NCBI RefSeq assembly: GCF_044324875.1
Contig: NZ_CP172185.1
Strand: one strand, 5' to 3'
Source: Escherichia coli
Lineage (GTDB): Bacteria; Pseudomonadota; Gammaproteobacteria; Enterobacterales; Enterobacteriaceae
Length of the DNA: 64,000 nt
A program made the translations under genes and the position numbers. The notes beneath the pieces were generated by a model. It was not told the origin of the DNA. It did no database searches and saw only the letters and a list, made by a program, of their open reading frames with translations. Below are positions 5,541 to 31,100 of the stretch, one piece after another (the first letter of the stretch is position 1; each line of letters starts with the position of its first letter).

Positions 5541-8051
5541 ATGAGCCATCACCACACGCACCTGGCGTACCCGTGGAACGCCCCGCTGCCGGTTATTGAT
5601 CCTGAGACATTCGGCAGAGCATTACCGCAGAAGCCAACCGCATTACAACGGGCAATCCGTGACTACCTCACCGAAGACATTCGCACTGAGGCCCGGCTGG
5701 ATGAAGAAACCGTGGCCTTCCTGACAACCACGGACAAAGGTAAGCAAATTAATTCACACCTTCACCGGGACGAAGAGCGGCAGATAAGGCTGGATAAGCT
5801 GGCACGACACAGACGCGAAAATCCGCCAACGGCGGTATCGGAGGCGATAGCCGAACTTCGCACCCTGCCCTCGTTTCTTGCCAGTGTGTTGATCCGTGAT
5901 CTGGCACGACTGAACCGGAAACAGCAAAGTGCCCGCAGTGAAGGTGTAAAAAACAACAGCGCATACGTGGCCGATAATTTCGTTCGCCGTGGACTGCGTG
6001 CGCGCCTGAAACGTATTGAAAGGGTTAACGACCGCTTTGCAACGCCGGCATTCAAAACCACCGTCGTGCGCCATCGCCTTGAAGAACTGCTCACACTGCC
6101 GCAACTCACCCGTGACGAAATCCAGCGCATCGCCACACTGACAGCCCAGGCATTCGCCGCAGAATTTGAACGCATATGTGATGAAGTTCTTGAACGGACA
6201 GGCAAGGATAATGACAGCCCGGTTATCTGGCTGCTGGCCTACCAGAAGGTGGCACGCACAGCCTTAATTCTGGGCATGGTCCCGCCATACTGGCCGGAAC
6301 TCGAAATCAGGCACAACCGACGCACACCGCCGGACCCTGAACGGGTTCCGGGTGCGGTACTGCGCATCACCTGCGCGACCTGGTGGAACAACCAGTTACG
6401 CCACGTCGCCGATCTCTGGCGGGAGGAGTTACTGCGCGCCGCCGGCAGAGTGTCACGTAAACAATCCCCCTATATCAGCCATGAGTCACTACTGGAGTTC
6501 CGCGAGAAGCGCCAGCGCACCTGTGACTTTCTCAAAAGCTGGGATATTGAAAACGAAGACGGCGAGCGCCTGAGTCTGGAGGACGTGTACTGGGCTGGCC
6601 TGGGTAATCCACGCAACCGCCGCAATGAAATGATGGTCTGCGTCAGAGGGATGGAGATGGTGGCCGAATTACGGGCTGACGTCGCATTCTTCATCACAGT
6701 AACCACCCCTTCCCGCTTTCACAGCGTGAACGAGAACGGCAGCCTGAACCCGAAATACAACGGTGCCACAGTACGAGATGCCAGTGATTATCTGGTTTAC
6801 GACTTCTTCGCAGCCGTAAGAAAAAAAATAAAAAAAGAGGGGCTGGGCTGGTACGGCGTGCGAACCGCTGAGCCACACCATGACGGCACGCCACACTGGC
6901 ATATGCTGGTATTCACTTCCCCGGAGAACGCAGAGCGCATCATCGAAATTATGCGCGAAGCAGCAATTAAATCAGATCGCCACGAACTGGGGGACGATAT
7001 TTCACCGCGCTTTAAATGCGAGAAGATAGACCCGGAAAAAGGCACACCGGCAAGCTATATCGCAACCTATATCGGTAAGAACCTGGACGCCAGCGCTTTC
7101 CACAACAATGATCCGAAAACCGGAAAACCTTACGTTGATGAGGAATCCGGGAAAACCATGGCGGAAACCGTGGAGAACGCCATTGCCTGGGCAAGCCTTC
7201 ACCGCATCCGTCAGTTCCAGTTTTTCGGCATTCCGCCCCGCCAGGTATGGCGTGAACTCCGCCGCCTTGCAAGCCAGATGGAGCGCAACCCGGCATCACC
7301 GAAGCACCTCGATCATGACGATATTGACGCCATTATGGCTGCCGCAGATGTGGGATGTTTTGCCACCTACATCATGAAACAGGGTGGTGTGCTCATTCCG
7401 CGCAACCAGTATCTGGTCCGCACCGCATACGAAACCGCAGACGAAGCCAACGACTACGGTGAATTCCCTCAACGTATCTACGGAATCTGCGCCCCGTCGC
7501 TCGGAGAGCGGTACACCATATGCACCCATCCGGACGAGTGGAAACTGGTTAAAAAAGAAACAATACCAGACAACCGCACGGGCGAGGGTTTTGACCTTCA
7601 GGGCGACCCCGTCGCCCCTTGGACTCGTGGCAATAACTGTCCCCGGGATGAAAAAACAGACAATCACGGACCAGAAAACAGGCAGGACCCCGGACGACTG
7701 ACGCTTCCCGAAGAGAACCTGGAAAGCTGGCTGAATACGTTAAGCAGGGGCGATCGGAGAAAACTGCGTAATCAGATTAAAAATCAGCCGTCGGGCGCAA
7801 AAACCGGACAAAACGACACCACACCGGCATCTGACACCCCTGTAAGGGTGGGGATTGTCGTGCCTGCGGATACCGCGACGGACACGCAAATCGCCCGCGA
7901 ACTTGATGCGCTGGGTGTGCAGTTGCCTGACGCGGCCATCATCTCCGTGCGTAACGGTGCCCGTGTGCGTCTGGATAACGGGGGAACAGCGTACTGGGAT
8001 GAGTCAGCCCGTCACATCATCACAGAGCAGCCAGTGGAGGCGGGAGCATGA
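5541..8051 (+). CDS. A: P2 gpA-like rolling-circle replication initiator (HUH endonuclease)
   Basis: 836 aa; HxH motif context TPHWHMLVF; position and size match the P2 A family. Confidence 0.85.
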   Translation: MSHHHTHLAYPWNAPLPVIDPETFGRALPQKPTALQRAIRDYLTEDIRTEARLDEETVAFLTTTDKGKQINSHLHRDEERQIRLDKLARHRRENPPTAVSEAIAELRTLPSFLASVLIRDLARLNRKQQSARSEGVKNNSAYVADNFVRRGLRARLKRIERVNDRFATPAFKTTVVRHRLEELLTLPQLTRDEIQRIATLTAQAFAAEFERICDEVLERTGKDNDSPVIWLLAYQKVARTALILGMVPPYWPELEIRHNRRTPPDPERVPGAVLRITCATWWNNQLRHVADLWREELLRAAGRVSRKQSPYISHESLLEFREKRQRTCDFLKSWDIENEDGERLSLEDVYWAGLGNPRNRRNEMMVCVRGMEMVAELRADVAFFITVTTPSRFHSVNENGSLNPKYNGATVRDASDYLVYDFFAAVRKKIKKEGLGWYGVRTAEPHHDGTPHWHMLVFTSPENAERIIEIMREAAIKSDRHELGDDISPRFKCEKIDPEKGTPASYIATYIGKNLDASAFHNNDPKTGKPYVDEESGKTMAETVENAIAWASLHRIRQFQFFGIPPRQVWRELRRLASQMERNPASPKHLDHDDIDAIMAAADVGCFATYIMKQGGVLIPRNQYLVRTAYETADEANDYGEFPQRIYGICAPSLGERYTICTHPDEWKLVKKETIPDNRTGEGFDLQGDPVAPWTRGNNCPRDEKTDNHGPENRQDPGRLTLPEENLESWLNTLSRGDRRKLRNQIKNQPSGAKTGQNDTTPASDTPVRVGIVVPADTATDTQIARELDALGVQLPDAAIISVRNGARVRLDNGGTAYWDESARHIITEQPVEAGA

Positions 8052-8479
8052 CGCGATTTTGCTGCACCATGCAGCGCCCACAGTTTGAGGCCATCATGCG
8101 CCAGCGTATGCCGGTGCTGACACTGTTCAGGCCTGCCACAAGGCCACAACCGGGCGACGAGCTGGAAATCACGATAGTCAGCCCCGATCGCACCACGGAG
8201 ACCACCATCGCCGACATACTCAACAGGCGGCCGGGCAGCGAGAGCCATAGCTGGACTGTCGTCATTCGTCCGCGCCGTTCGCCGGAGGAACCGGAGCCGT
8301 GCACGCCTGCCGGGAAAATCATGCAGAGATATCACGAAGAGCGGACACGCAGGCACAACGGCGGACTGGCCAGAACACTGAACACAGTCAATCACAAGGC
8401 CGCGCTGGCGCGAATGGTCTTTTCACCACAACGCAATTCATTCGCCAGACCAGCACAGAACGGGAGGAAACAACAGTGA
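8048..8479 (+). CDS. Hypothetical cargo protein, first gene of the accessory operon
   Basis: 143-aa ORF, start overlaps A stop (ATGA), GGAGG RBS. Confidence 0.5.
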   Translation: MTRFCCTMQRPQFEAIMRQRMPVLTLFRPATRPQPGDELEITIVSPDRTTETTIADILNRRPGSESHSWTVVIRPRRSPEEPEPCTPAGKIMQRYHEERTRRHNGGLARTLNTVNHKAALARMVFSPQRNSFARPAQNGRKQQ

Positions 8480-8670
8480 GCAGAATATTACTTTTTCTGC
8501 TGTTTTTCGCGCCATTCGCACAATCAGCCACGCCGAACTGCGTAGCGAAAAAGAGCAACACCGTTGTCATTGTCCAGTGTGATGACGGCACGGTAACAAT
8601 CACCGACTCGAGCAAAGGAAGCGTCATTGTCTGCCGTAAAGAGAAACCCTGTCAGCGAACCGAACTTTGA
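8476..8670 (+). CDS. Small secreted Cys-containing protein (64 aa, GTG start)
   Basis: GGGAGG RBS; signal-peptide-like N-terminus ILLFLLFFAPFAQSA; four Cys in the mature part. Confidence 0.45.
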   Translation: MSRILLFLLFFAPFAQSATPNCVAKKSNTVVIVQCDDGTVTITDSSKGSVIVCRKEKPCQRTEL

Positions 8671-8681
8671 AGGAAAAATAT

Positions 8682-8761
8682 ATGAACAGGAAACAGAAGC
8701 AGGAACTGAAAGGCTTCTTACGTAAAGAAATTGCCAGGCTGGAAGATGTGGAATCTCAGTC
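8682..8761 (+). pseudogene. 5' part of a cargo gene split by the IS insertion
   Basis: AAGGA RBS and ATG at 8682; reading frame runs into the IS end at 8762. Confidence 0.6.
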
Positions 8762-8860
8762 TGCGTATTCCGCTCTATTCGATCACGGATTGGCATCGAA
8801 GTCCGATCAGCGATTCGCATCCATTCGATCAACCGGGAACTTAACTTTTTCTACCGCTTT

Positions 8861-9616
8861 TTAACGCGTTTTTTCGCTGCTTTCCACTACCGGGGGATTT
8901 TTCCTCAGTGACTCTCCCTGAAGGACCACTCGGTGTGAGTTATGTACCAGTCTGTCCAGGATGGCATCTGCTGTTGTTGGGTTCTCCATCAGACCATGCC
9001 ATTTATCTACCGGGAACTGGCTTACCACTATCGTGCTGCTTTGTCCGTAACGATCCTCTATGAGCTCCAGAAGGTCATTACACTGGGCGTTACTTAACTG
9101 TTCCAGCCCCAGATCGTCCAGGATTAGAACCTGTATTTTTTGCAACTGTTTCAGATATTTCAGCCAGCTGCCATCAACACGTCCCTGAGCCAGTTGTTCC
9201 AGTAATCGCCCGGTTCTACAGTACCGGACGCTGTGTTTCTGTCGACATGCCTGTTCGCCCAGCGCATTGGCTATCCAGCTCTTGCCACATCCTGTCGGAC
9301 CGGTTATCAGCAGGTTTTTCCTGTGGGTTATGTAGTGGCCGTTCAGCAGTTCTCTCATCTGTTCAGCCCGCAGACCTCTTGAGGCCGGATAGCGCAGCCC
9401 TTCCGGTGTTGCCTGGTATTTCAGGCCGGCATTTTTTCTCAACCGTGCCACACGGCTGTTTTCCCTGCTCAGAAGCTCGTCATCAACCAGCAGCGTCAGC
9501 CTTTCCTCGAACGACAGTTCGTCGTAGGTCTGAGGCGTTTCCCGCTGCCGTATCAGGCTCCCGGCCATCGCCGGGAGTTTCAGTTGGGTCAGTTTGTTTA
9601 ACAGGTTATCACTCAT
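8861..9616 (-). CDS. istB: IS21-family helper ATPase IstB
   Basis: Walker A GPTGCGKS; start taken at MSDNLLNKL. Confidence 0.85.
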   Translation of the reverse strand: MSDNLLNKLTQLKLPAMAGSLIRQRETPQTYDELSFEERLTLLVDDELLSRENSRVARLRKNAGLKYQATPEGLRYPASRGLRAEQMRELLNGHYITHRKNLLITGPTGCGKSWIANALGEQACRQKHSVRYCRTGRLLEQLAQGRVDGSWLKYLKQLQKIQVLILDDLGLEQLSNAQCNDLLELIEDRYGQSSTIVVSQFPVDKWHGLMENPTTADAILDRLVHNSHRVVLQGESLRKNPPVVESSEKTR

Positions 9617-9632
9617 ACTGTTGTTCCTTCTG

Positions 9633-11168
9633 TCAGTGGTAGTAGCCCGGACCACGCAGGTTTTCATGCTCTGAAGCATATGCCGGATGTTGTTCGCCCT
9701 GGCGGGATAATGGAAGCTCCAGGTTCTCCCGATGGTGACGCAGCAGATTGTCGATAAAGCGTCTGTCAGGGGCGTTATAGTGCAGGGCAACGTAACAGGC
9801 CTTTTCCAGCCGTTCCGGGCCGTATTTTTTCTGAAGTGCCAGCAGCCCCAGAACTGCACGATAAGCCAGTTCCGGATGGGGTTTTGCCTTCAGCATGGAT
9901 TCAACCACCCGGCCTGTGGACGGGCCCGTACGTTTTCCCTGCTCGATCAGGCGTTCCGGTGTCCATGTCCCGTGCTGCCGGTGGCGCTCTGGCATGTGAA
10001 GCGGATTGGTTGTGTGTTTATATTCATGTGTGCTGCGCGGATGTTGCGCCACACACTGCCCCTTGTGCCAGAGCTGTACCACCGACTGCCCCGCCTTCAG
10101 TGACAGACGCTGACCGACCAGTTCGTGTGGAACGGAGTACCAGTGACGGGCATATTCAACGTGGTAGTCAGGGCCAACCTTCACAGCTTTGTATTCCGTG
10201 TATTCATAAGGTGCCAGAGGCAGCGGAGAGAGTGCTGGCGCATCCAGTATGCGGAAGCGTTCTGCACGGGTTTGATTGCCGTACCCCTTCATTGGCCGGT
10301 TATTCATGTCTGTCAGTAACTCCCTAAGGCGCGCATTCAGCGCCCTGAGCGTGTGGAAGGTTTCATTACGGATGCGGGCAAGAAGCCATCGTTCAACGAT
10401 GAGGACGCCGTTTTCTGCTTTTGGTTTATCTTTAGGTTTGCGTGGTCGGGCCGGGATGATAACCGTGCCATAGTGCTCAGCCAGTGCCTGATAACTGTCG
10501 TTGATGACAGGCTCATATCGATCGGCCTTTTTCACTGCGCTTCTGAGGTTATCGGGGATGAGCAGCTTCGGTACGCCGCCCAGGAAGGTCAGGCAACGGC
10601 TGTGGGCATTTAACCATGACATCATGTCCTGACCTTCGCACGCTTCAACGTAGGTATAGTTGGACGCCCCCATTACGGCCACGAAGATTGCCACGCGGCG
10701 TATCTCACCGGTGTCCGGATTAATAACAGGAACCGTAGGACCACAGAAGTCGATAAAAAGCTTTTCGCCGGCACGATGCTCCTGGCGCATGGAGAGACGT
10801 CGCGTTTTTTTCCACTCCCGGTAGCAACGGCAGAAGTGCGAGTATCCCATCGCTTTGTTACCCGCCTGTGCCTTGTATTCCATCCACAACAGTTGCCGCG
10901 TCACACCTGGTTTTCTCATTTCCGTATCGAAGTACAACATGTCAGGCATTACAAGCTCTGATGCAAAGGTGTCTTTGGGCGGAAAAATGAGTTTCTCCAG
11001 CGTGTCATGGGATATATCAGCAGGTAATGGCCATGACAGAGAAGAGGCTTTGAAGCGGGCAAGAACCTCAAAAACGGTTGAGGCGCTGATGTGTAACGTC
11101 AGTCCGATACAACGGTTAGTCAGCTTCTTGTCGAACTTGAGCTGAAGGATCTTAAAACAGGTTTCCAT
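9633..11168 (-). CDS. istA: IS21-family transposase IstA
   Basis: ~512 aa from METCFKILQ; N-terminal HTH and integrase-like catalytic core typical of IstA. Confidence 0.85.
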   Translation of the reverse strand: METCFKILQLKFDKKLTNRCIGLTLHISASTVFEVLARFKASSLSWPLPADISHDTLEKLIFPPKDTFASELVMPDMLYFDTEMRKPGVTRQLLWMEYKAQAGNKAMGYSHFCRCYREWKKTRRLSMRQEHRAGEKLFIDFCGPTVPVINPDTGEIRRVAIFVAVMGASNYTYVEACEGQDMMSWLNAHSRCLTFLGGVPKLLIPDNLRSAVKKADRYEPVINDSYQALAEHYGTVIIPARPRKPKDKPKAENGVLIVERWLLARIRNETFHTLRALNARLRELLTDMNNRPMKGYGNQTRAERFRILDAPALSPLPLAPYEYTEYKAVKVGPDYHVEYARHWYSVPHELVGQRLSLKAGQSVVQLWHKGQCVAQHPRSTHEYKHTTNPLHMPERHRQHGTWTPERLIEQGKRTGPSTGRVVESMLKAKPHPELAYRAVLGLLALQKKYGPERLEKACYVALHYNAPDRRFIDNLLRHHRENLELPLSRQGEQHPAYASEHENLRGPGYYH

Positions 11169-11400
11169 AGTGCTCCTGGATTTTCTCTTTCTGGACATTG
11201 ACGTCTCCACTGGTTTAAACACGGCAATGGAGACTGTGGTGAAAAGAGTTAATTCCCGGAGTGACTGGCAGGATGCCAATCAATGATCGGAAGCATGCCA
11301 AATCGTGATCGATTGTGATGCCAAACTGTGATCGGAGATGGATGCCAAATCATGATCGATTCGAATGCCAAACTGCGATCGATTCAGATGCCATTTTGCA

Positions 11401-11641
11401 TCAGTCATCAGATATTCCATTCGGAATGGATATCAACGACGCCTGTATGCTCCAGGTATACCGCATAGCTCAGGCTGCACTACAGGCAAAACCGTCAGAT
11501 GGACTGGTTAGAGCAGTACGTTTCTATGAACTGGTAAAGCGTGAGAATCCGCCAGTCGAAACCGGAGCATGGCAAGACGCTGTTGACTGGGTGCTCAAAG
11601 AGGCTTGTCAGGTTGTAAACACTGGCATCAAAGGAGACTGA
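11401..11641 (+). pseudogene. 3' part of the cargo gene split by the IS insertion
   Basis: Removing the IS and one TSD copy joins 8682-8761 in frame to this segment, giving a 104-aa ORF. Confidence 0.6.
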
Positions 11642-11642
11642 T

Positions 11643-11852
11643 ATGGCTATTGCCGCAAGTTACACCATGCATCTCTATTGTGATTGTCGCCAGTGTACAA
11701 ATGGTAAATATCAAACGCCAGACTTCGGTGAATATATCGGTACGTCATGGACTGGCTGTGCAAAAGAGGCGCGTAAGGATGGCTGGCGAATAAGCAAAGA
11801 CAAAACTCGTGCTTTTGCGCCCGGGCATAAAGTTTTGAGGATTAACAAATGA
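11643..11852 (+). CDS. Small Cys-rich protein (69 aa), possible zinc ribbon
   Basis: AAGGAG RBS; CDC-x2-C ... C pattern; tightly packed in the operon. Confidence 0.5.
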   Translation: MAIAASYTMHLYCDCRQCTNGKYQTPDFGEYIGTSWTGCAKEARKDGWRISKDKTRAFAPGHKVLRINK

Positions 11853-12250
11853 CCACTATAACCAAAGAGCGACTACTGACAATCAGGCAGTGGCGCGAAA
11901 CATACGGACCTGGTAGCAACGTTGTACTGCCAGCCGAAGAAGCGGAAAAACTGGCACGGATTGCTTTGGCATCGCTGGAAGCAAAACCAATAGGTGCTTT
12001 CCACATTGCAGAACAGCAGGTCGATGGCACAAGTGACTACATCAAGGATGGGGAGTACCGCTTGCTGACATCTGAAGAACAAAAGATAGCCCAACTTTTA
12101 GGCGATGCATGGAACCTGTATTTTACATTGCCAGTTGAGCATCCAATGGGTAGAGATGAATTTTGCCGGGCAATTCATCATTGCCAAAATATGGTGTTGG
12201 CACGCCCTGCCATCAGGGCGCTGGCCAGTAAGGGGCAAGGCTATAAATAG
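11849..12250 (+). CDS. Hypothetical cargo protein (133 aa)
   Basis: Start overlaps the previous stop (ATGA); followed by a strong terminator. Confidence 0.5.
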   Translation: MTTITKERLLTIRQWRETYGPGSNVVLPAEEAEKLARIALASLEAKPIGAFHIAEQQVDGTSDYIKDGEYRLLTSEEQKIAQLLGDAWNLYFTLPVEHPMGRDEFCRAIHHCQNMVLARPAIRALASKGQGYK

Positions 12251-12256
12251 ATGAGC

Positions 12257-12285
12257 AAAACGCCCTCCTCCAGGGCGTTTATTTC
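12257..12285 (+). terminator. Rho-independent terminator closing the cargo operon
   Basis: Hairpin AACGCCCTCCTCCAGGGCGTT followed by a T-rich run. Confidence 0.6.
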
Positions 12286-12741
12286 AATGCACAATAGTGC
12301 ACAAATTTGCACAATTTTTTTGAACGACTTTTTGCCCTTCCGGCCCGTGTGGCGTCTGGATCCGTCGGGGATCCGTGCGTGCACGAAAAAAGGCCTTTTT
12401 CTGCGCGCAGGTGACGGGGGAACAGCCCGCGTTTCAGGGGGTAAATAGCATTCCCTGAACGATGTTGCAGTGACACAACAGAATGGCTGTATTTCTCACG
12501 CTGAGCGTGAAAAAGACGTAAGGGCTTTTGATTTGATGGGGTGAAAGATAAGGCCGTCAAAATCGCACTGAGGCAGCGAGAATATGTCGTCAGAGTTGCG
12601 GGGTTGCGTAAGCATCCGCCCGGCGATGATGGCTACAGGGCTGGAGATGTTGTGAAATTATCTGAAGGAATAACCAGCTTGCAGGAGAACCCGGGCAAAG
12701 TCAGAATAGCGGCAGGCATCAACTCAAAAGAGGATAATGTC

Positions 12742-13245
12742 ATGAGCCACTTTAATGATTTATGCCAGATCAATCGTGAAGCTGAAGAAAAACGCGCTGA
12801 GGCAGCTCAAATTTTGCGGGATGAAGCGGCAAGGCTGATTGATTTCTATGAAGAATGGCTGGGGCTTCCATCCATGTACTGGGAAGACGATGATGGCGAC
12901 CTGCACCGCTACGTGGAGACAGGCTTGCCATGTAAGACAGCGGCGGATTTTAGTCCTCTTTCAGTCCACAATATCGCATCTGCACCAGACAATATTTTCC
13001 GCATGGCCGTGCGAACCTGGGTTAAGTCATCTGACAGCAGCTACCCGGTAAGCGTGGTTATTGCACTTGAATTATATTCAGTAGATGCGGAACGGGTGTC
13101 TCTGAGAGTCCGGGTGGAAGACGATATTTCTGTTCGCGTATTTATCAATAAACCCAGCGAAGAAGCCTGGGGCGATGTTGTTATGCACATGAAAAAGCAC
13201 ATCGCTAATCACCTGAAAAAGCGAGCGCCATCAGCACTTCGTTAA
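12742..13245 (+). CDS. Hypothetical acidic protein (167 aa) next to the portal gene
   Basis: AGAGGA RBS before ATG at 12742; an upstream in-frame GTG at 12541 is an alternative start. Confidence 0.45.
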   Translation: MSHFNDLCQINREAEEKRAEAAQILRDEAARLIDFYEEWLGLPSMYWEDDDGDLHRYVETGLPCKTAADFSPLSVHNIASAPDNIFRMAVRTWVKSSDSSYPVSVVIALELYSVDAERVSLRVRVEDDISVRVFINKPSEEAWGDVVMHMKKHIANHLKKRAPSALR

Positions 13246-13311
13246 GCAGAGCTGGAGAGTCGGGGCATAAATTTTTTATGCCCCGGCGAAGCAGCAGACA
13301 AGCGAAGCGCG

Positions 13312-14367
13312 TCAGGATATGGGCTGGGTGTCTAACAGTGCGTAAGGGTTAAAACGGATCACCTCTTCGCCCAGCCAGTCGTTGACGTGTTTCATTGCTT
13401 CCATGACGGGCATCAGTTCGTTAATGGCAAACACACGGGCTGCCTTCTCCACATCCCCGAATGACCCCTTCTCACCCGGCATGGCCCCCATCAGCTGCGG
13501 CGGTACACGGTGCACGGACAGCACATCATCACGCGATGCAGCCTTGACGTTCATGAACTCATCCTTTGCGGTGATTTGCTGAAACGGCAAAATCTGTACG
13601 CCATCCTTACCACCTCCCGCCGCGTGGATGAGCAGATTTTTAAACGCCCCGCCACCACGCGCGCTTTGCAGTGTTTCCCGCAGTTTTTCCATGCTTTCAC
13701 GGTCAACCTGCGCCGCACCGATGTAGACAATACAGCCCGCGTGTGAGCCGTTATCGTAGTAGAGCTTGCGGAAGATATCGGCGGAATGTGACAGGCTGGC
13801 AGACAGCAGGCCGCCCAGGTAATCCGGCATCCCGTAAATCTCCTGGTTGATATCAGGATTCATCAGGTGGCATATCGTCCCCTCACGAAAGCGGTACTCT
13901 TCCTGTCCTTCCTGTATATACCACCATGATTTCATATCGCTGCCACGTCGCATGTATTTCGCCAGCGCCCGGCGCAGGGCCAGCGGTTCGCCAAGCATGT
14001 TGCGCCGCAGCTCAAGACAGGCATTACCGAACACAAACCAGTCCATCGCCACCCCGGCGAACTCCTGGCGGGACAGCAGAGGATGTGGAATATAGCAGCC
14101 CAGCAGCACATTACGTTTGAAGCTGAGCGCCGACTGGTGCCAGGACGTCTGGCGGGCAGCCCGTGCCAGTCCGTACCAGTCAACGGGCGTTTCAAACCAC
14201 CGCCCGTTGTCGGCGCAGTACATGCTGTCCAGCAGGTCGGCCCCTGACAGCCGGTAAGGTCCTTCAAACGTGAAGGCACTCAGTGTCGGGTCGCTTCGCA
14301 GGGAATCCGCAAGGCTGCCCTGCGCTGCGCGGGCGTTCGTACGTCGTTGTTTATTTTTTCTGCTCAT
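13312..14367 (-). CDS. Q: Portal protein, P2 gpQ-like
   Basis: 351 aa, adjacent to and co-oriented with the large terminase, as in P2. Confidence 0.85.
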   Translation of the reverse strand: MSRKNKQRRTNARAAQGSLADSLRSDPTLSAFTFEGPYRLSGADLLDSMYCADNGRWFETPVDWYGLARAARQTSWHQSALSFKRNVLLGCYIPHPLLSRQEFAGVAMDWFVFGNACLELRRNMLGEPLALRRALAKYMRRGSDMKSWWYIQEGQEEYRFREGTICHLMNPDINQEIYGMPDYLGGLLSASLSHSADIFRKLYYDNGSHAGCIVYIGAAQVDRESMEKLRETLQSARGGGAFKNLLIHAAGGGKDGVQILPFQQITAKDEFMNVKAASRDDVLSVHRVPPQLMGAMPGEKGSFGDVEKAARVFAINELMPVMEAMKHVNDWLGEEVIRFNPYALLDTQPIS

Positions 14368-16118
14368 CAGAACTCCGTAACACTGAAGGGGGCGGCATCA
14401 TGTTCACCGCCGACAGGTTCGTTGATAACGGCCAGCATGGTGGCCCATGCAAGATCGCCATGGCTTACGCCTCTTGCGCGATCTGTTTCGTAGGTGATAA
14501 ATCCGGCCTGCGTTTTTGTTTTGCGTACCGCGTTAAAGGCGCTCACCAGTTCGCGCTCGCTGCGGTCGTACTCCCACCGCCCGGCGCGCATGAGCTGCAG
14601 CATCTTCAGAACCAGCGTGCGCTTTGATGACAGGGTGAAGGTGTAGGGAATGGCTGCCGGAAAAAAGCGCTTCACAATCTGATACACCGCATCCCCGTGA
14701 CCGCCGGTTACGTCAATACCGATATGCTCAACGTTATAGCGAAAGGTGAACTCTTCAATCACCTTCGCCTGCGCCTCAAACTCCAGCCCCTGCACCCGCC
14801 GCGTCTCCACGGTGCGAAAACGCCCGCCCGGTACGGCTGGCGGCACCACCACGACAACCGCCCCGCTGTCACCGTTCCCGCTACTGCCGTTGGCGTCGTA
14901 CCCAATCCACACAGGGCGGTTCCCCATCGGACGCGGTGCAAACGGCTTCCAGTCCGGCCACTCGTCGTATCCGTCAACACCGCAGCCAATCAGGATATTC
15001 AGGTTAAATGCCGATTCCCCTTCGCGAGCAAATTCACACATGTAGAGATTGCGGAACTCGTCTTCAGTGTTATTGCGCCGGATTTTGTCAATGTTGGTTA
15101 ACGTCCATCCCTGACTGACCACATCTTCCAGCGTCACAATTTGCCGCCAGATATAGTCAGGACAGATAAGGCCGTTATGAAGCGCATTCCAGCTCACATC
15201 AAAATGCTGACGTTTATGAGTACGAAGCCCTTCATTCCAGTGATCGCCGTTCCAGTATGCATACGCCTCATGTGTTTCACTTGATGGCGTGGAAAAATAG
15301 GTACACCGCAAACCATCCAGCGTTGCCATAGCAGCAGCCACCTTGCGCAGCTCTGCGAAACGCCCCGTCCAGAAAAACTCATCAAAATACAGATTCCCTG
15401 TGTACGCTTGCGCGGTGGCCGCAGAAGTGCCGAGAAAATGCAGCTCTGCACCGTTGGAGAGGATGACTTTATCGCCCCCTTTCAGTTCCACATCAACTTC
15501 AGATGCAGCCTTCTGAATAATGCTTTTAAACTGGAGCGCCTGACGACGAGACGCAGACAAAAAAATCTGGTTACGCTGGTAAGGTTGTGCCACATCGTCA
15601 CGCAGCGCCATCAGCAGCGCTTCCTGCGCAAAATACCAGGTCGCCCCAATCTGGCGGGATTTCAGGATCATCCTGTCAGTAATTCCGGCACGCTCACAGG
15701 CACCGATAGCATCAAGCCATTTGCGCTGGTGTCCGGCCAGCCTGTCGGTAATTTTTTCCCGCAGCGCCGCGATCTGTTCCGGCGTGAAATGATTTTTGCG
15801 TTTTTTCGCCCGGCCTTTCTTTCCTGTTGCCGTCTCATCCGGCAGACCGTCATGCAGCTTTTTAAGCTGACGGGTCAGCAAATCAATTTCCTTAAAGTCC
15901 CCGCCTGTTTTATTCTGTTTTTCCGTGAGCTGAATGAGTCGCGCATCCATGGACTGCGTGACACGCTGAACCGGGGGCGTCTCATCCCACTGGTCGCGTT
16001 TTTTCCACGAATGGATCGTGTTCTGGTTGATACCCATAAGGCGGGAAATTTCCGCAACAGGGTAACCCTGCCAGTACAGCTGGCGTGCCCGCTGGCGAAC
16101 AAATGTATCCTGAATCAT
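14367..16118 (-). CDS. P: Terminase large subunit (ATPase), P2 gpP-like
   Basis: 583 aa; divergent from the scaffold gene as in P2. Confidence 0.85.
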   Translation of the reverse strand: MIQDTFVRQRARQLYWQGYPVAEISRLMGINQNTIHSWKKRDQWDETPPVQRVTQSMDARLIQLTEKQNKTGGDFKEIDLLTRQLKKLHDGLPDETATGKKGRAKKRKNHFTPEQIAALREKITDRLAGHQRKWLDAIGACERAGITDRMILKSRQIGATWYFAQEALLMALRDDVAQPYQRNQIFLSASRRQALQFKSIIQKAASEVDVELKGGDKVILSNGAELHFLGTSAATAQAYTGNLYFDEFFWTGRFAELRKVAAAMATLDGLRCTYFSTPSSETHEAYAYWNGDHWNEGLRTHKRQHFDVSWNALHNGLICPDYIWRQIVTLEDVVSQGWTLTNIDKIRRNNTEDEFRNLYMCEFAREGESAFNLNILIGCGVDGYDEWPDWKPFAPRPMGNRPVWIGYDANGSSGNGDSGAVVVVVPPAVPGGRFRTVETRRVQGLEFEAQAKVIEEFTFRYNVEHIGIDVTGGHGDAVYQIVKRFFPAAIPYTFTLSSKRTLVLKMLQLMRAGRWEYDRSERELVSAFNAVRKTKTQAGFITYETDRARGVSHGDLAWATMLAVINEPVGGEHDAAPFSVTEF

Positions 16119-28154: not shown

Positions 28155-31100
28155 CTAATCTCTGTCACGGAAACTACCGACTGTCTGGCGGATACGGCGT
28201 TCCATTTCCGCACGGACGGCATCACCCACCATTTTTGCCAGTTCGCGCGGGTTTTGCGTGTGAACATCATGCAGGTGAATATGCAGTTCGCCAGTTAATC
28301 CCCATGGTGCCGGCTCACTCTGGCGCGGTCGGGGCGATGCGGGGGATATGGGCTGGCGCACAGCCTCAACCACCGGACGGGATGTTGCCGCCATCACTGG
28401 TGTCATTAGCGGGGAGAACGTCGGCATGACATCGTGAGTCATAACCGGTTTGATCACCGGCGGAACCACTGGCGTAATATTACCGGACAGTACCGGACGG
28501 ACGACCGGAGGAATAACCGGCACATTATTCACGGACACCACCGGCTTCACGACCGGCGACACGTTCGCCGTGGTGGATATCAGCGGCGAAACACTGACAG
28601 GCGGTGGCGCTGGCAGCGGTGGCAACGAAGGCACACTGACCGACGGCACCTGCGGCAGTCTGACAGGTGGCTCACTGACACTACCCGGTAACAGGGAAGC
28701 TGCTCGGTTAAAGCGTTCCTCCTTCCACTCACCACGAACGGCCAGCGCTTCCGGCAGGTTTTTAAAGATAATATCGCCGGGACCAGCGCGTTTTTTCGCC
28801 TGTTTCGCCTCATCCAGCAGACCACCGGTGTTATCGACGATTTTGTTCAGGCGGCGCATAGTGCCGGTATTCTCCCCCGTCAGGGGTGGTTGCCCCCCTT
28901 TGGGTTTTTCGCCGTCTTTTTTATCCTCGTCCTTTTTCGGCGGATTAATGACGTTAACATCCGCCAGAAGCATGGCAGCTTTCTCGTTCAGCAACTCCTT
29001 CTGTTTTAGTTCTTCCGCCTTTTTCCGGGCGCGCTCAACCGCCGACGGAATCAGCCCGAGTTTTTCCAGCACCCGGGTTAATGAGTCAATCAGCAGCGTA
29101 ACCGGACCGGTCACCAGATTGCTGATAAACTCCCCTACCTTCTGCCCGAACGTACGCCCGGCTTCCGTGCACTTGTCCAGCTCATCCTTTGTTGTGCTTA
29201 CCGGCGCGAACAAATCCACGAACCACTGCCACACACGCCCGATTGTCTGCCCGACATACTCAAACAGCGGTCCCAGTGGTGCCACAGCCTCGCGCAGTGG
29301 CGTAAGCCCCTGCCACAGGCCGGACAAGAACCCGCCCACGACAGCCTTCAGCTGGTCCCAGTGCCGCCAGATAAGCACTGCCGCACCGACCAGTGTCGCC
29401 ACCACAAGGCCCACCGGACTTAACAGAAAACCCAGCGCCCCGCCAAGTGCGCCCACCGCACCACTCACCATCCCCCACAGTGCGGGCAGACCTGACAGTC
29501 TGAGCGCCAGTATTCCGATACCGCGCCCCAGTGAAATCAGTGCGCCGCCAGGTGAAGTGAACGCAGCCAGCAGACCACCACGCAGCGCGCCAAGTCCCGC
29601 CTGCACACCACGAAGCCGCCCCGCAACTACGCCCAGCAGTGCAGCAAACCGTCCGGCACCGGAGGTGATACCGACAAACAGCACGCGCCAGCCACCGATA
29701 CCGCCCAGCGGACCACCGAGTACGCCGCGCAGCTGCGTCAGTAACGGCAGCGCACGACCGAGGCCGGATGTGCCGGTCAGCAGGGCAAACCCAAGACGCA
29801 GTTTTGCCAGCGGCCCCATCAACACACCAGTGGCAAGTGACAGCGCCCCCATGGCCGCAACCGCAGCCAGCAGTACACCACCGGCAATCAGCAGTTGTTT
29901 TGTCAGTTCAGGGTGCGCCTGAGCCAGCGCGGTGACTTTCGCAATAACCCGGGTGAACGACTGCGTGACAGAACGCAGCGGCCCGTCAACGAGGTCAGCG
30001 ACACGGATACGCAGTCCTTCCCATGCGCTGTTCAGTGATTTCAGGTCACCGTCCAGGTTATCAGCCATAACACGGGCAGTGTGATTAAGTTCCCCGGTGG
30101 CCAGTTCAATCTCCTGCGTAAGACGGGGAAGATTATTTTCCCCCGCCGCAGTGACAAGATTCATCAGGGAAACATAGGACTCCTGCCCGGCAATAGCCCT
30201 GAAAAAGGAGACCTGCGCGGCATTACCGTATTTTCGGGTGGCCTGGTACAGCTCATTCAGGATATTTTCCATCCGGCGCATGTTCCCGTAAGCATCCTGC
30301 GTCTCCACGCCAAGCTCTTTCAGTGCCATTGCAGCGGCCTTCGGCGGATCAACCAGACGTGACAGACTGGCACGCAGCGCCGTACCTGCATCACTTCCAC
30401 GGATCCCCACACTGCCAAGGACACCCGTCATGGCTGCCGCCTGTTCAAGGGACAGGCCAAGTGAAGCTGCAACCGGACCCGTGTACTTCATGGTTTCACC
30501 CAGTGAACGGAGATCCGTATTGGTTCGTGTGAAGGTGGCGGCCAGCGTGTCACCCACGCGATCCATCTGGTCAGCGGACAGACCAAACTGTGTGAGGATA
30601 TTCGAACTGATATCGGCAGTCTGTCCCAGGTCCATCCCTGCAGCCATTGCCAGATCAAGCACGCCGGGTAGCGCCGCCTGTATGGCCTGTGGTGTGAAGC
30701 CGGCCATGGCAAGGAACGCCTGACCGCTGGCAGCATCACCGGCGGTAAACTGCGTTTCAGAGCCCAGCTTAATGGCCTGTTCGCGCAGCGCCTTAAACTG
30801 CGGACTGTTTTTGTCAATACGGGTCAGCGCCTGGACGCGTGACATCTCCTTACCAAAACTGACCGCCGGTTGCAGGAAACGTCCGGCCGCATAGCCGCCT
30901 GCCGCCGCCGTACCAACCGCCGTAAGTCCGACCGTTTTAAGTTTTCCCGCCGTCTCCTGAGCACGGGAATATTGCTGGCGTGCCTGCGTGACACGTGCCA
31001 GCGCCTGCCGTTCGCGTTCCAGCTGGTCGTTGTATTGCTGTGTTCGCCGTATGGCCTGTTGAATGGTGTTGTCACTGCCGGAAAGCGCAATACCGTGGCG

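What the first reader, a model, noticed from the sequence alone, without database searches (positions are those of the whole stretch)
8048..12285. Candidate undescribed accessory operon in the P2 gene-A/portal hotspot, inactivated by IS insertion
Directly downstream of replication gene A, where P2 carries tin/old cargo, sits a tightly packed co-oriented operon of five genes with overlapping start/stop codons: a 143-aa protein, a 64-aa secreted Cys-containing protein, a 104-aa protein now split by an IS, a 69-aa Cys-rich zinc-ribbon-like protein and a 133-aa protein. It ends in a strong terminator. None resembles any family I can name. Position, compactness and small secreted/zinc-binding components fit an anti-phage or superinfection-exclusion module.
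Basis: partly seen in the sequence, partly recalled or inferred. Interest (0 to 1): 0.75.

Follow-up and report, generated by a model that had tools for sequence, protein, structure and literature searches.

The report
Mosaic tail of P2-like early operon
The five small genes after replication gene A are real and one is split by an insertion sequence, but they look like an ordinary patchwork: a counterpart of phage P2's orf91 followed by small genes shared with lambda-like phages, with no evidence of an anti-phage system.

Summary
Five co-oriented ORFs with Shine-Dalgarno sites follow gene A with overlapping or nearly abutting stops and starts: g1 8048-8479, g2 8476-8670, g3 8682-8761 plus 11407-11641, g4 11643-11852, g5 11849-12250. 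A hairpin terminator follows. An intact 2,639-bp IS21-family element (8762-11400, 6-bp duplication TCAGTC) splits g3. Twenty-three of 5,426 complete E. coli genomes carry an IS-free copy, and the one I aligned is 100% identical across the cassette.

The five genes are not one co-inherited module.
- **g1** belongs to the phage backbone. Its homologues always overlap the stop codon of a ~840-aa gene A, whatever lies downstream. Its predicted fold is PUA/ASCH-like, and its best structural match (3iuw) is also the sequence match of P2 Orf91, which holds the same position in P2.
- **g2-g5** have lower GC content and are mosaic. The end of g3, all of g4 and the start of g5 are 85-96% identical to DNA in Stx, lambdoid and P1-like phages. 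g5 carries a conserved N-terminal segment that is joined to hundreds of different C-termini elsewhere.

No defence, Pfam or NCBIfam family matches any of the five proteins. The genes run on directly from the early replication operon, whereas P2's old and tin are on the opposite strand with their own mRNA start. The exact arrangement is already listed, untested, in Rousset et al. 2022. Function remains unknown and interest is low.

The parts
5541..8051 (+). Replication gene A (836 aa), the upstream anchor of the operon
   Evidence: ORF. PGAP calls the identical gene in L001 'replication endonuclease'. Homologues carry Pfam Phage_GPA.
8048..8479 (+). g1, 143 aa. PUA/ASCH-like beta-barrel (residues 1-75) followed by a long basic helix (87-124). 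Counterpart of P2 orf91 and part of the backbone, not cargo.
8476..8670 (+). g2, 64 aa. Small protein with an apparent Sec signal peptide and four Cys in the mature part.
   Evidence: GTG start overlapping the g1 stop, with a GGGAGG Shine-Dalgarno site. Matches phrog_20764 and phrog_11462, both of unknown function. The family is tiny. A 72%-identical homologue lies after a ParM/StbB cassette and before a ClpX-type zinc-finger gene.
8682..8761 (+). g3, 5' part (codons 1-26 and two bases of codon 27), cut by the IS
   Evidence: Alignment to IS-free loci. The intact 104-aa protein is WP_001080487. It is 93% identical to P88 gp20.
8762..11400 (-). IS21-family insertion sequence, 2,639 bp. istA lies within 9633-11279 and istB within 8861-9616, both on the minus strand. 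The 6-bp target duplication TCAGTC is at 8756-8761 and 11401-11406.
   Evidence: junctions; 100%-identical copies elsewhere; PGAP names IstB 'ISSso4 family'; terminal repeats; NCBIfam scores above cutoffs.
11407..11641 (+). g3, 3' part (last base of codon 27 through codon 104, plus the stop codon). This C-terminal module is shared with lambdoid phage proteins.
   Evidence: 58% identical over 78 residues to a 119-aa protein of phage vB_EcoM-606R7. Matches phrog_26213 and phrog_660.
11643..11852 (+). g4, 69 aa. Small alpha/beta protein with invariant C13, C15 and C18. A widespread 'prophage protein' family of unknown function.
11849..12250 (+). g5, 133 aa. Chimera of a hyper-conserved N-terminal segment (residues 1 to about 50-72) and a 62-aa C-terminal module that also occurs as a separate ORF.
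   Evidence: 1,175 clusters (50% identity) match at E <= 0.001. Nearly all of the 150 listed match only through residues 1 to about 50-72 and range from 53 to 418 aa. 27 of 65 sampled members carry DUF551. The first 48 residues are 90% identical to Stx2 phage 86 orf45. A 62-aa standalone form is seen on 831 contigs. PGAP marks the gene as a partial pseudogene in L001.
12258..12280 (+). Intrinsic-terminator-like hairpin ending the operon
   Evidence: -15.2 kcal/mol, z = -3.96, 9-bp stem, followed by UUUAUUU.

Best explanation
This is the far end of the early (replication) operon of a P2-like prophage. It is not a self-contained defence cassette, and it has three layers.

1. **g1** is this lineage's version of P2 orf91. 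It is a small PUA/ASCH-fold protein with an added basic helix, and its start codon overlaps the stop codon of gene A. It is therefore made together with the replication initiator. I infer that it binds nucleic acid.
2. **g2-g5** form a lower-GC block of small accessory genes acquired by recombination. They come from a gene pool shared with lambdoid and Stx phages (the exo-xis / ea22 / DUF551 neighbourhood and the region after the replication genes), P1-like phage-plasmids and P88-like P2 relatives. g3 and g5 are chimeras: a conserved N-terminal segment is joined to an exchangeable C-terminal module near a shared RIA(L/Q)A(A/S)L(E/Q)AKP motif (E in place of K in some relatives).
3. **An active IS21-family element** inserted into g3. 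This destroys g3 and places 2.6 kb of antisense IS between g2 and g4-g5.

No promoter-like site or gap separates these genes from gene A, and a terminator follows g5. I therefore infer that they are transcribed from the early promoter on infection or induction, not from the repressed prophage. I also infer that they act, like the lambda exo-xis genes, as dispensable early modulators of host physiology or of the lysis-lysogeny decision. Some may be counter-defence proteins.

Shown: the anatomy, the IS, the backbone status and fold of g1, and the mosaic origin of g3-g5. Inferred: the timing of expression and the functional class.
For: - **Anatomy and IS:**
- **g1 is backbone.** Its homologues (62-99% identity, named sources all E. 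coli) always overlap the end of a ~840-aa GPA gene. What lies downstream differs: MarR/TumE/HVO_A0114 genes, an Ead_Ea22 protein, or DUF7446 plus an Ea22-like gene. It is under purifying selection. Its GC content is 60%, against 44-49% for g2-g5.
- **Contrast with P2 cargo.** In the P2 record, tin and old lie on the opposite strand, and the 'old-tin mRNA' start is annotated next to old.
- **Mosaic origin.** The g3 C-terminus, g4 and the g5 N-terminus are 85-96% identical at DNA level to Stx, lambdoid and P1-like phages. In Stx2 phage 86 the match lies between exo and int. In vB_EcoM-606R7 it lies after replication gene O and next to an 'Ea22' gene. Pieces of the block occur in 1,595 of 5,426 E. 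coli genomes, including 349 places on plasmids.
- **Modular family.** The g5 N-terminal segment is attached to many different C-termini, often DUF551. The same constant-N, variable-C mosaic is described for Ea22 variants (PMC10834534).
- **No sign of separate expression.** No + strand sigma-70-like site was found inside the cassette. This scan is crude.
- **No family matches.** PADLOC, NCBIfam and Pfam give nothing significant.
Against: - No expression data exist. The promoter scan is a crude consensus search and could miss a promoter active in lysogens.
- The P2 gene A / portal region is enriched for defence systems. Untested 'unknown' cargo in such hotspots often proves defensive. In a 2026 preprint, 6 of 8 unknown loci from P4 satellites conferred protection, and 15-32% of unknown P2 proteins scored as antiviral.
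- g1 has no detectable sequence similarity to Orf91 or to Pfam DUF3850. The link rests on a predicted fold and on gene position.
- The function assigned to g2-g5 is by analogy with exo-xis genes, whose own mechanisms are poorly known.
- g3 and g5 do not match Pfam Ead_Ea22.
Confidence: 0.6

Rival explanations
1. One reading: g1-g5, or g2-g5, form a new prophage-encoded anti-phage or superinfection-exclusion system. The secreted g2 would act at the envelope, and the Cys-rich g4 would act as a sensor or effector.
For: - The locus lies in the gene A / portal hotspot, where P2 carries old and tin and where many defence systems are found (PMC9122126).
- Unknown hotspot cargo often turns out to be defensive.
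- g2 appears to be exported (sequence reading).
- The arrangement was catalogued but never tested.
Against: - No PADLOC hit, apart from E = 0.016 for g3 against a candidate model.
- The genes run on from gene A with no gap and no promoter-like site. P2's old and tin are on the opposite strand with their own mRNA start.
- g1 is backbone, not cargo.
- The components are inherited independently. They mostly occur in early regions of lambdoid and P1-like phages, not in defence islands.
Confidence: 0.12
2. g2-g5 are early-expressed counter-defence or host-takeover proteins. The exchangeable C-terminal modules of g3 and g5 would each target a different host or defence protein.
For: - Position in an early operon.
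- Small size and extreme modularity, with one conserved N-terminal segment on hundreds of different C-termini.
- One family member carries a dATP/dGTP pyrophosphohydrolase domain. PMC10834534 cites a phage protein of that type as inhibiting host restriction enzymes.
Against: - No similarity to any characterised anti-defence protein.
- The idea is purely inferential.
Confidence: 0.2
3. g3-g5 are largely non-functional by-products of illegitimate or homologous recombination between phages. They would be chimeric ORFs kept open by chance in a young clonal prophage lineage, on the way to decay.
For: - PGAP flags g5 as a partial pseudogene in IS-free genomes.
- g3 and g5 are chimeras.
- All full-length copies found are at least 99.9% identical, so this lineage offers no test of selection.
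- An IS has already knocked out g3.
Against: - Every ORF keeps a good Shine-Dalgarno site and overlapping or abutting stop/start junctions.
- g4 and the g5 C-terminal module are conserved as intact ORFs across many diverged phages.
- The P88 gp20 orthologue of g3 is intact at 93% identity.
Confidence: 0.08

Closest known systems
Bacteriophage P2 orf91 (DUF3850, PUA/ASCH-like), the last gene of the P2 early operon
   Same: Compared with g1. Both lie immediately 3' of gene A with a 4-nt stop/start overlap on the same strand. The g1 model has the same small PUA/ASCH barrel, and its best PDB match (3iuw) is the sequence homologue of Orf91.
   Different: There is no detectable sequence similarity and no Pfam DUF3850 hit. 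g1 also carries an extra ~55-residue basic helical tail. The function of Orf91 itself is unknown.
Lambdoid exo-xis region and Ead/Ea22-like mosaic genes (lambda ea22 and the Stx-phage ea22 variants with DUF551 C-termini)
   Same: Compared with g3-g5. Homologous DNA lies between exo and int in Stx2 phage 86 and next to 'Ea22' genes in other phages. The architecture is the same: a constant N-terminal segment with exchangeable C-terminal domains, often DUF551 (PMC10834534). Both sets are small, non-essential genes in early operons.
   Different: g3 and g5 do not match Pfam Ead_Ea22 and have no BLAST similarity to lambda Ea22. Their N-terminal segments are of different sequence types. Here the genes sit in a P2-like phage, after gene A.
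P2 tin/old and other defence cargo of the P2 gene A / portal hotspot (Rousset et al. 2022)
   Same: Same genomic interval. The arrangement is listed in that paper's Table S5.
   Different: Tin and old are on the opposite strand with their own annotated mRNA start. This cassette continues the gene A transcription unit. It has no defence-family hits and was not among the tested systems.
Xuanwuvirus P88 hotspot (ParM / partition protein / ClpX-type zinc finger / gp20)
   Same: P88 gp20 is the 93%-identical orthologue of g3. A g2 homologue occurs in a P88-like arrangement.
   Different: P88 has a partition cassette in place of g1, and it lacks g4 and g5.

Membership tests
P2 Orf91 / DUF3850 (PUA clan), tested for g1 | Gene immediately downstream of replication gene A, same strand, stop/start overlap | tested here: met
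   Window ATGA at 8048-8051. In P2, gene A ends at 30319 and orf91 starts at 30316. The same holds for all g1 homologues examined.
P2 Orf91 / DUF3850 (PUA clan), tested for g1 | Sequence match to Pfam PF12961 or to Orf91 | tested here: not met
   No Pfam hit even at E <= 10. hhalign of the g1 alignment against Orf91 gives probability 0.2%.
P2 Orf91 / DUF3850 (PUA clan), tested for g1 | Small PUA/ASCH-like beta-barrel fold | tested here: met
Known or candidate anti-phage defence system | Match to a defence-protein profile (PADLOC-DB) | tested here: not met
   no hits, apart from g3 against PDC-M28C at E = 0.016 (12 bits).
Known or candidate anti-phage defence system | Components inherited together as a unit | tested here: not met
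   g1 occurs with unrelated downstream genes. g2 occurs after ParM/StbB. The g3, g4 and g5 modules occur separately in lambdoid and P1-like phages.
Known or candidate anti-phage defence system | Expressed from the prophage and protects against infection | not testable with these tools
   The only evidence is indirect: no gap from gene A and no + strand promoter-like site. Transcript data and plaque assays are needed.
Ead/Ea22-like family (PF13935), tested for g3 and g5 | Sequence match to the Ead_Ea22 profile or to lambda Ea22 | tested here: not met
   Pfam scans of g3 and g5 are negative. No BLASTP hit to lambda Ea22.
Ead/Ea22-like family (PF13935), tested for g3 and g5 | Constant N-terminal segment with exchangeable C-terminal domains, in lambdoid early accessory regions | tested here: met
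   (g5 N-terminal segment on hundreds of different C-termini, DUF551 in 27 of 65). (g3 N-terminal segment on three different C-termini). (genomic location).
IS21 family insertion sequence | IstA transposase and IstB helper ATPase, multiple terminal repeats, short target duplication | tested here: met
   NCBIfam scores of 284.6 (cutoff 160) and 257.8 (cutoff 200). Repeated ~20-bp terminal motifs. 6-bp duplication TCAGTC.
Zinc ribbon, tested for g4 | Two CxxC-type knuckles conserved across the family, and a zinc-ribbon fold | tested here: not met

The most novel reading that the evidence does not exclude
g3 and g5 may belong to a very large, unrecognised class of modular temperate-phage proteins. 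In this class, a few hyper-conserved N-terminal segments (85-93% identical across hundreds of clusters) are joined near a shared RIALAxLEA(K/E)P-type hinge to interchangeable C-terminal 'warheads'. The small Cys protein g4, which often travels between two such genes, might be a common partner. Such a system would be a recombination-driven arsenal of early effectors, either counter-defence or host-manipulating, that spreads between lambdoid, P1-like and P2-like phages.
Probability: 0.1. Interest if true: 0.6.

Novelty: new member of a known kind. Interest (0 to 1): 0.25.

Why it matters
If the main reading is right, little changes. It is one more example of mosaic, dispensable early genes in a temperate phage, with an IS insertion in one of them.

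Two points are useful:
- It is a caution against assuming that everything in the P2 gene A / portal hotspot is defence cargo. The first gene is a fixed orf91-type backbone gene, and same-strand genes that run on from gene A are probably early lytic genes.
- g1 shows that the orf91 position is held by PUA/ASCH-fold proteins even when sequence similarity is lost. That hints at a conserved but unknown role alongside the rolling-circle initiator.

The modular N-terminal-segment / C-terminal family of g3 and g5 is very abundant in E. coli prophages and has never been characterised.

Tried and rejected
- **Family searches.** Pfam scans of g1, g3, g4, g5 and g6 gave no significant hit. NCBIfam and PADLOC scans of all six proteins gave nothing usable.
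- **PDB sequence searches.** Searches with g3, g4, g5 and the g1 profile gave nothing.
- **g1 in sequenced phages.** tblastn of g1 against 50,697 phage records found no match. I found it only in bacterial genome assemblies and metagenome contigs.
- **g2 homologues.** tblastn gave only weak hits to Erwinia jumbo-phage hypothetical proteins. The large protein database held only three clusters.
- **g1 against Orf91.** hhalign was negative. I kept only the fold and position link.
- **cos site.** A P2-type cos consensus with up to 3 mismatches, and BLAST of the P2 right end against 12201-13400, found nothing. The cos site was not located.
- **lambda Ea22 as a homologue of g3 or g5.** Considered and rejected as a sequence-level relative.
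- **Literature on orf91/DUF3850.** The search found nothing functional.

Full report
**1. What is in the sequence**

The window carries a P2-like prophage. Replication gene A lies at 5541-8051 (+), the portal gene at 13312-14367 (-) and the large terminase gene at 14367-16118 (-). PGAP annotation of an identical relative agrees.

| Gene | Coordinates | Length |
|---|---|---|
| g1 | 8048-8479 | 143 aa |
| g2 | 8476-8670 | 64 aa (GTG start) |
| g3 | 8682-8761 + 11407-11641 | 104 aa when rejoined |
| g4 | 11643-11852 | 69 aa |
| g5 | 11849-12250 | 133 aa |

The junctions are ATGA, GTGA, an 11-nt gap, a 1-nt gap and ATGA. Each start has a good Shine-Dalgarno site. A hairpin at 12258-12280 (-15.2 kcal/mol, z = -3.96) followed by UUUAUUU ends the unit.

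**2. The insertion sequence**

Twenty-three of 5,426 complete E. coli genomes carry the region without the insert. With 8762-11400 and one copy of TCAGTC removed, the window is 100% identical to E. coli SCU-115 from 8000 to 12470.

The 2,639-bp insert is an IS21-family element:
- IstA and IstB both score above the NCBIfam cutoffs.
- It has the family's repeated terminal motifs.
- Full-length copies at 100% identity occur elsewhere in E. coli, so the element is probably active and the insertion recent.

The IS lies antisense to the operon. It truncates g3 after codon 26 and puts 2.6 kb between g2 and g4-g5. g1 and g2 are untouched. A polar effect on g4-g5 is likely, but I did not show it.

**3. 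g1 is backbone, and it is the orf91 counterpart**

g1 homologues are 62-99% identical to g1, and every source that names them gives E. coli. They keep their length and show dN/dS of 0.09-0.42, so g1 is a real gene.

In every context examined, g1 overlaps the stop codon of a ~840-aa GPA gene. The downstream genes are unrelated from one context to the next:
- MarR-like, TumE and HVO_A0114 genes;
- a 163-aa Ead_Ea22 protein;
- DUF7446 plus an ead/Ea22-like gene.

g1 has 60% GC, close to gene A's 56%. g2-g5 have 44-49%.

In phage P2 the gene after A is orf91. It is annotated as DUF3850, lies on the same strand and overlaps gene A by 4 nt. Orf91 matches 3iuw by sequence at E = 5e-11.

So g1 and Orf91 share position, the 4-nt overlap with gene A and fold. 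They share no detectable sequence similarity. I file g1 as "works like and sits like Orf91". It is not a proven DUF3850 member.

**4. g2-g5 are a mosaic drawn from a pool shared with other temperate phages**

All of them fall in PHROG families of unknown function.

*DNA-level sharing.* The end of g3, all of g4 and the start of g5 are 85-96% identical to Stx-converting, lambdoid and P1-like (RCS47) phages.
- In Stx2 phage 86 the match lies between exo and int, the exo-xis region.
- In vB_EcoM-606R7 it lies after replication gene O, as a 119-aa / 69-aa / 'Ea22' trio.
- Pieces of this block occur in 1,595 of 5,426 E. coli genomes, including 349 places on plasmids. The three parts are found in all combinations, so they are shuffled independently.

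*g5.* It is a chimera. Its first 48 residues are 90% identical to Stx2 phage 86 orf45. In a search of 1.84 billion representatives, 1,175 clusters match. Nearly all of the 150 listed match only through residues 1 to about 50-72, at 52-100% identity (mostly 75-93%), and range from 53 to 418 aa. Of 65 sampled, 27 carry DUF551 and one carries a dATP/dGTP pyrophosphohydrolase domain. The 62-aa C-terminus of g5 exists elsewhere as a separate ORF.

*g3.* It is built the same way. Its first ~57 residues recur on three different C-termini, and its C-terminal half recurs in a lambdoid protein. Both genes have an RIA(L/Q)A(A/S)L(E/Q)AKP motif near the point where similarity to relatives ends.

This constant-N, variable-C mosaic is what the literature describes for Ea22 variants (PMC10834534). 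Even so, g3 and g5 do not match the Ead_Ea22 profile.

*g2.* It has a plausible Sec signal peptide and four Cys in the mature part. Its family is tiny. A 72%-identical homologue lies after a ParM/StbB partition cassette in a P88-like arrangement. P88 gp20 is the 93%-identical orthologue of g3.

**5. Defence or not**

There is no positive evidence for defence. PADLOC, NCBIfam and Pfam give nothing.

The layout argues against prophage-expressed exclusion genes. In P2, tin and old are on the opposite strand, and the record marks an 'old-tin mRNA' start next to old. Here the genes continue from gene A without any gap. A consensus scan finds no + strand sigma-70-like site inside the cassette (weak evidence). 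From general knowledge of P2, the early promoter is repressed in lysogens. I therefore infer expression on infection or induction.

Their relatives sit in early accessory regions of lambdoid phages. Published work there points to effects on lysogenisation, induction and host survival (PMC7093339, PMC3824215, PMC10834534).

The prior for defence in this hotspot is not negligible (PMC9122126). A 2026 preprint reports antiviral-like scores for 15-32% of unknown P2 hotspot proteins. I keep the defence reading at about 0.12 and a counter-defence variant at about 0.2.

**6. Prior knowledge**

The exact set of protein accessions appears as "hypothetical x 6" in Table S5 of Rousset et al. 2022. It does not appear in their table of tested systems. 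WP_000196517, WP_000086827, WP_001080487 and WP_000951718 were checked by name, and two further accessions are listed with them. All five proteins are in public databases as hypothetical proteins, some seen on at least 1,000 contigs.

**7. Verdict**

The five genes are not one module, one of them corresponds to a conserved P2 gene position, and nothing supports an anti-phage role. This is a new member of a known kind, namely mosaic early accessory genes plus an orf91-type gene. Interest is 0.25.

The most novel reading left open is that the N-terminal-segment / C-terminal-module family of g3 and g5, perhaps together with g4, is a recombination-driven arsenal of early effectors (probability about 0.1).

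Noticed in passing
window 12541-13245 (+); the conserved core probably starts at M68, position 12742: g6 is a separate gene just upstream of the portal gene, preceded by about 290-490 bp with no confidently coding sequence. It matches phrog_5091 (unknown function) over residues 67-233 and has no Pfam or PADLOC hit. A 54%-identical 167-aa homologue holds the same position in a P2-like prophage with different cargo (L008). It may be the more plausible candidate for a gene expressed independently of the early operon.
   Followed up: partly
window 11815-11990 (g5 residues 36-47) and 11494-11529 (g3 residues 45-56): g3 and g5 share the motif RIA(L/Q)A(A/S)L(E/Q)AKP near the point where similarity to relatives switches from the N-terminal segment to the variable C-terminus. 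Stx2 phage 86 orf45 and 606R7 'Ea22' have E in place of K. It could be a recombination linker or a structural hinge.
   Followed up: partly
L001 9505-9639 (equivalent to window 11849-11983): In IS-free genomes, PGAP annotates only the first 45 codons of g5, as a pseudogene 'missing C-terminus'. The 133-aa ORF is in fact intact and identical to the window. This looks like an annotation artefact caused by the chimeric architecture.
   Followed up: yes
window 12288-13300: This stretch (intergenic DNA plus g6) has megablast matches in 2,201 of 5,426 E. coli genomes, mostly at 90-95% identity, including 352 places on plasmids. That is far more than the 23 genomes carrying the g1-g5 cassette. It may contain the cos region, but no P2-type cos consensus was found.
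   Followed up: partly
L007 5621-6939 and L008 1339-2657: In related P2-like prophages, the g1 homologue is followed by a MarR-like gene plus a TumE and HVO_A0114 pair. That looks like a toxin-antitoxin or defence candidate and is a better defence lead than the cassette studied here.
   Followed up: no
L009-L012, about 6054-6958 (-): Another hotspot variant has a 208-aa minus-strand gene with hydrophobic segments and an Ogr/Delta zinc-finger gene between the g1/Ead_Ea22 pair and the portal gene. This is opposite-strand cargo in the style of P2 old and tin.
   Followed up: no
window 11315-11641 (+): An in-frame GTG inside the right terminal repeats of the IS opens a 108-aa ORF that fuses IS-end sequence to the 3' part of g3. 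Whether the IS end drives any outward expression of g3', g4 and g5 is unknown.
   Followed up: no
L006 6956-7183 and 7914-8231: One relative (E. coli E7-1N7) carries two genes with the same g3-type N-terminal segment but different C-termini within a single hotspot. This shows module exchange within P2-like phages.
   Followed up: partly
window 53809-53896 (+): A tRNA-Ser (GGA) gene lies far downstream of the prophage structural genes. I did not examine it as a possible attachment site.
   Followed up: no
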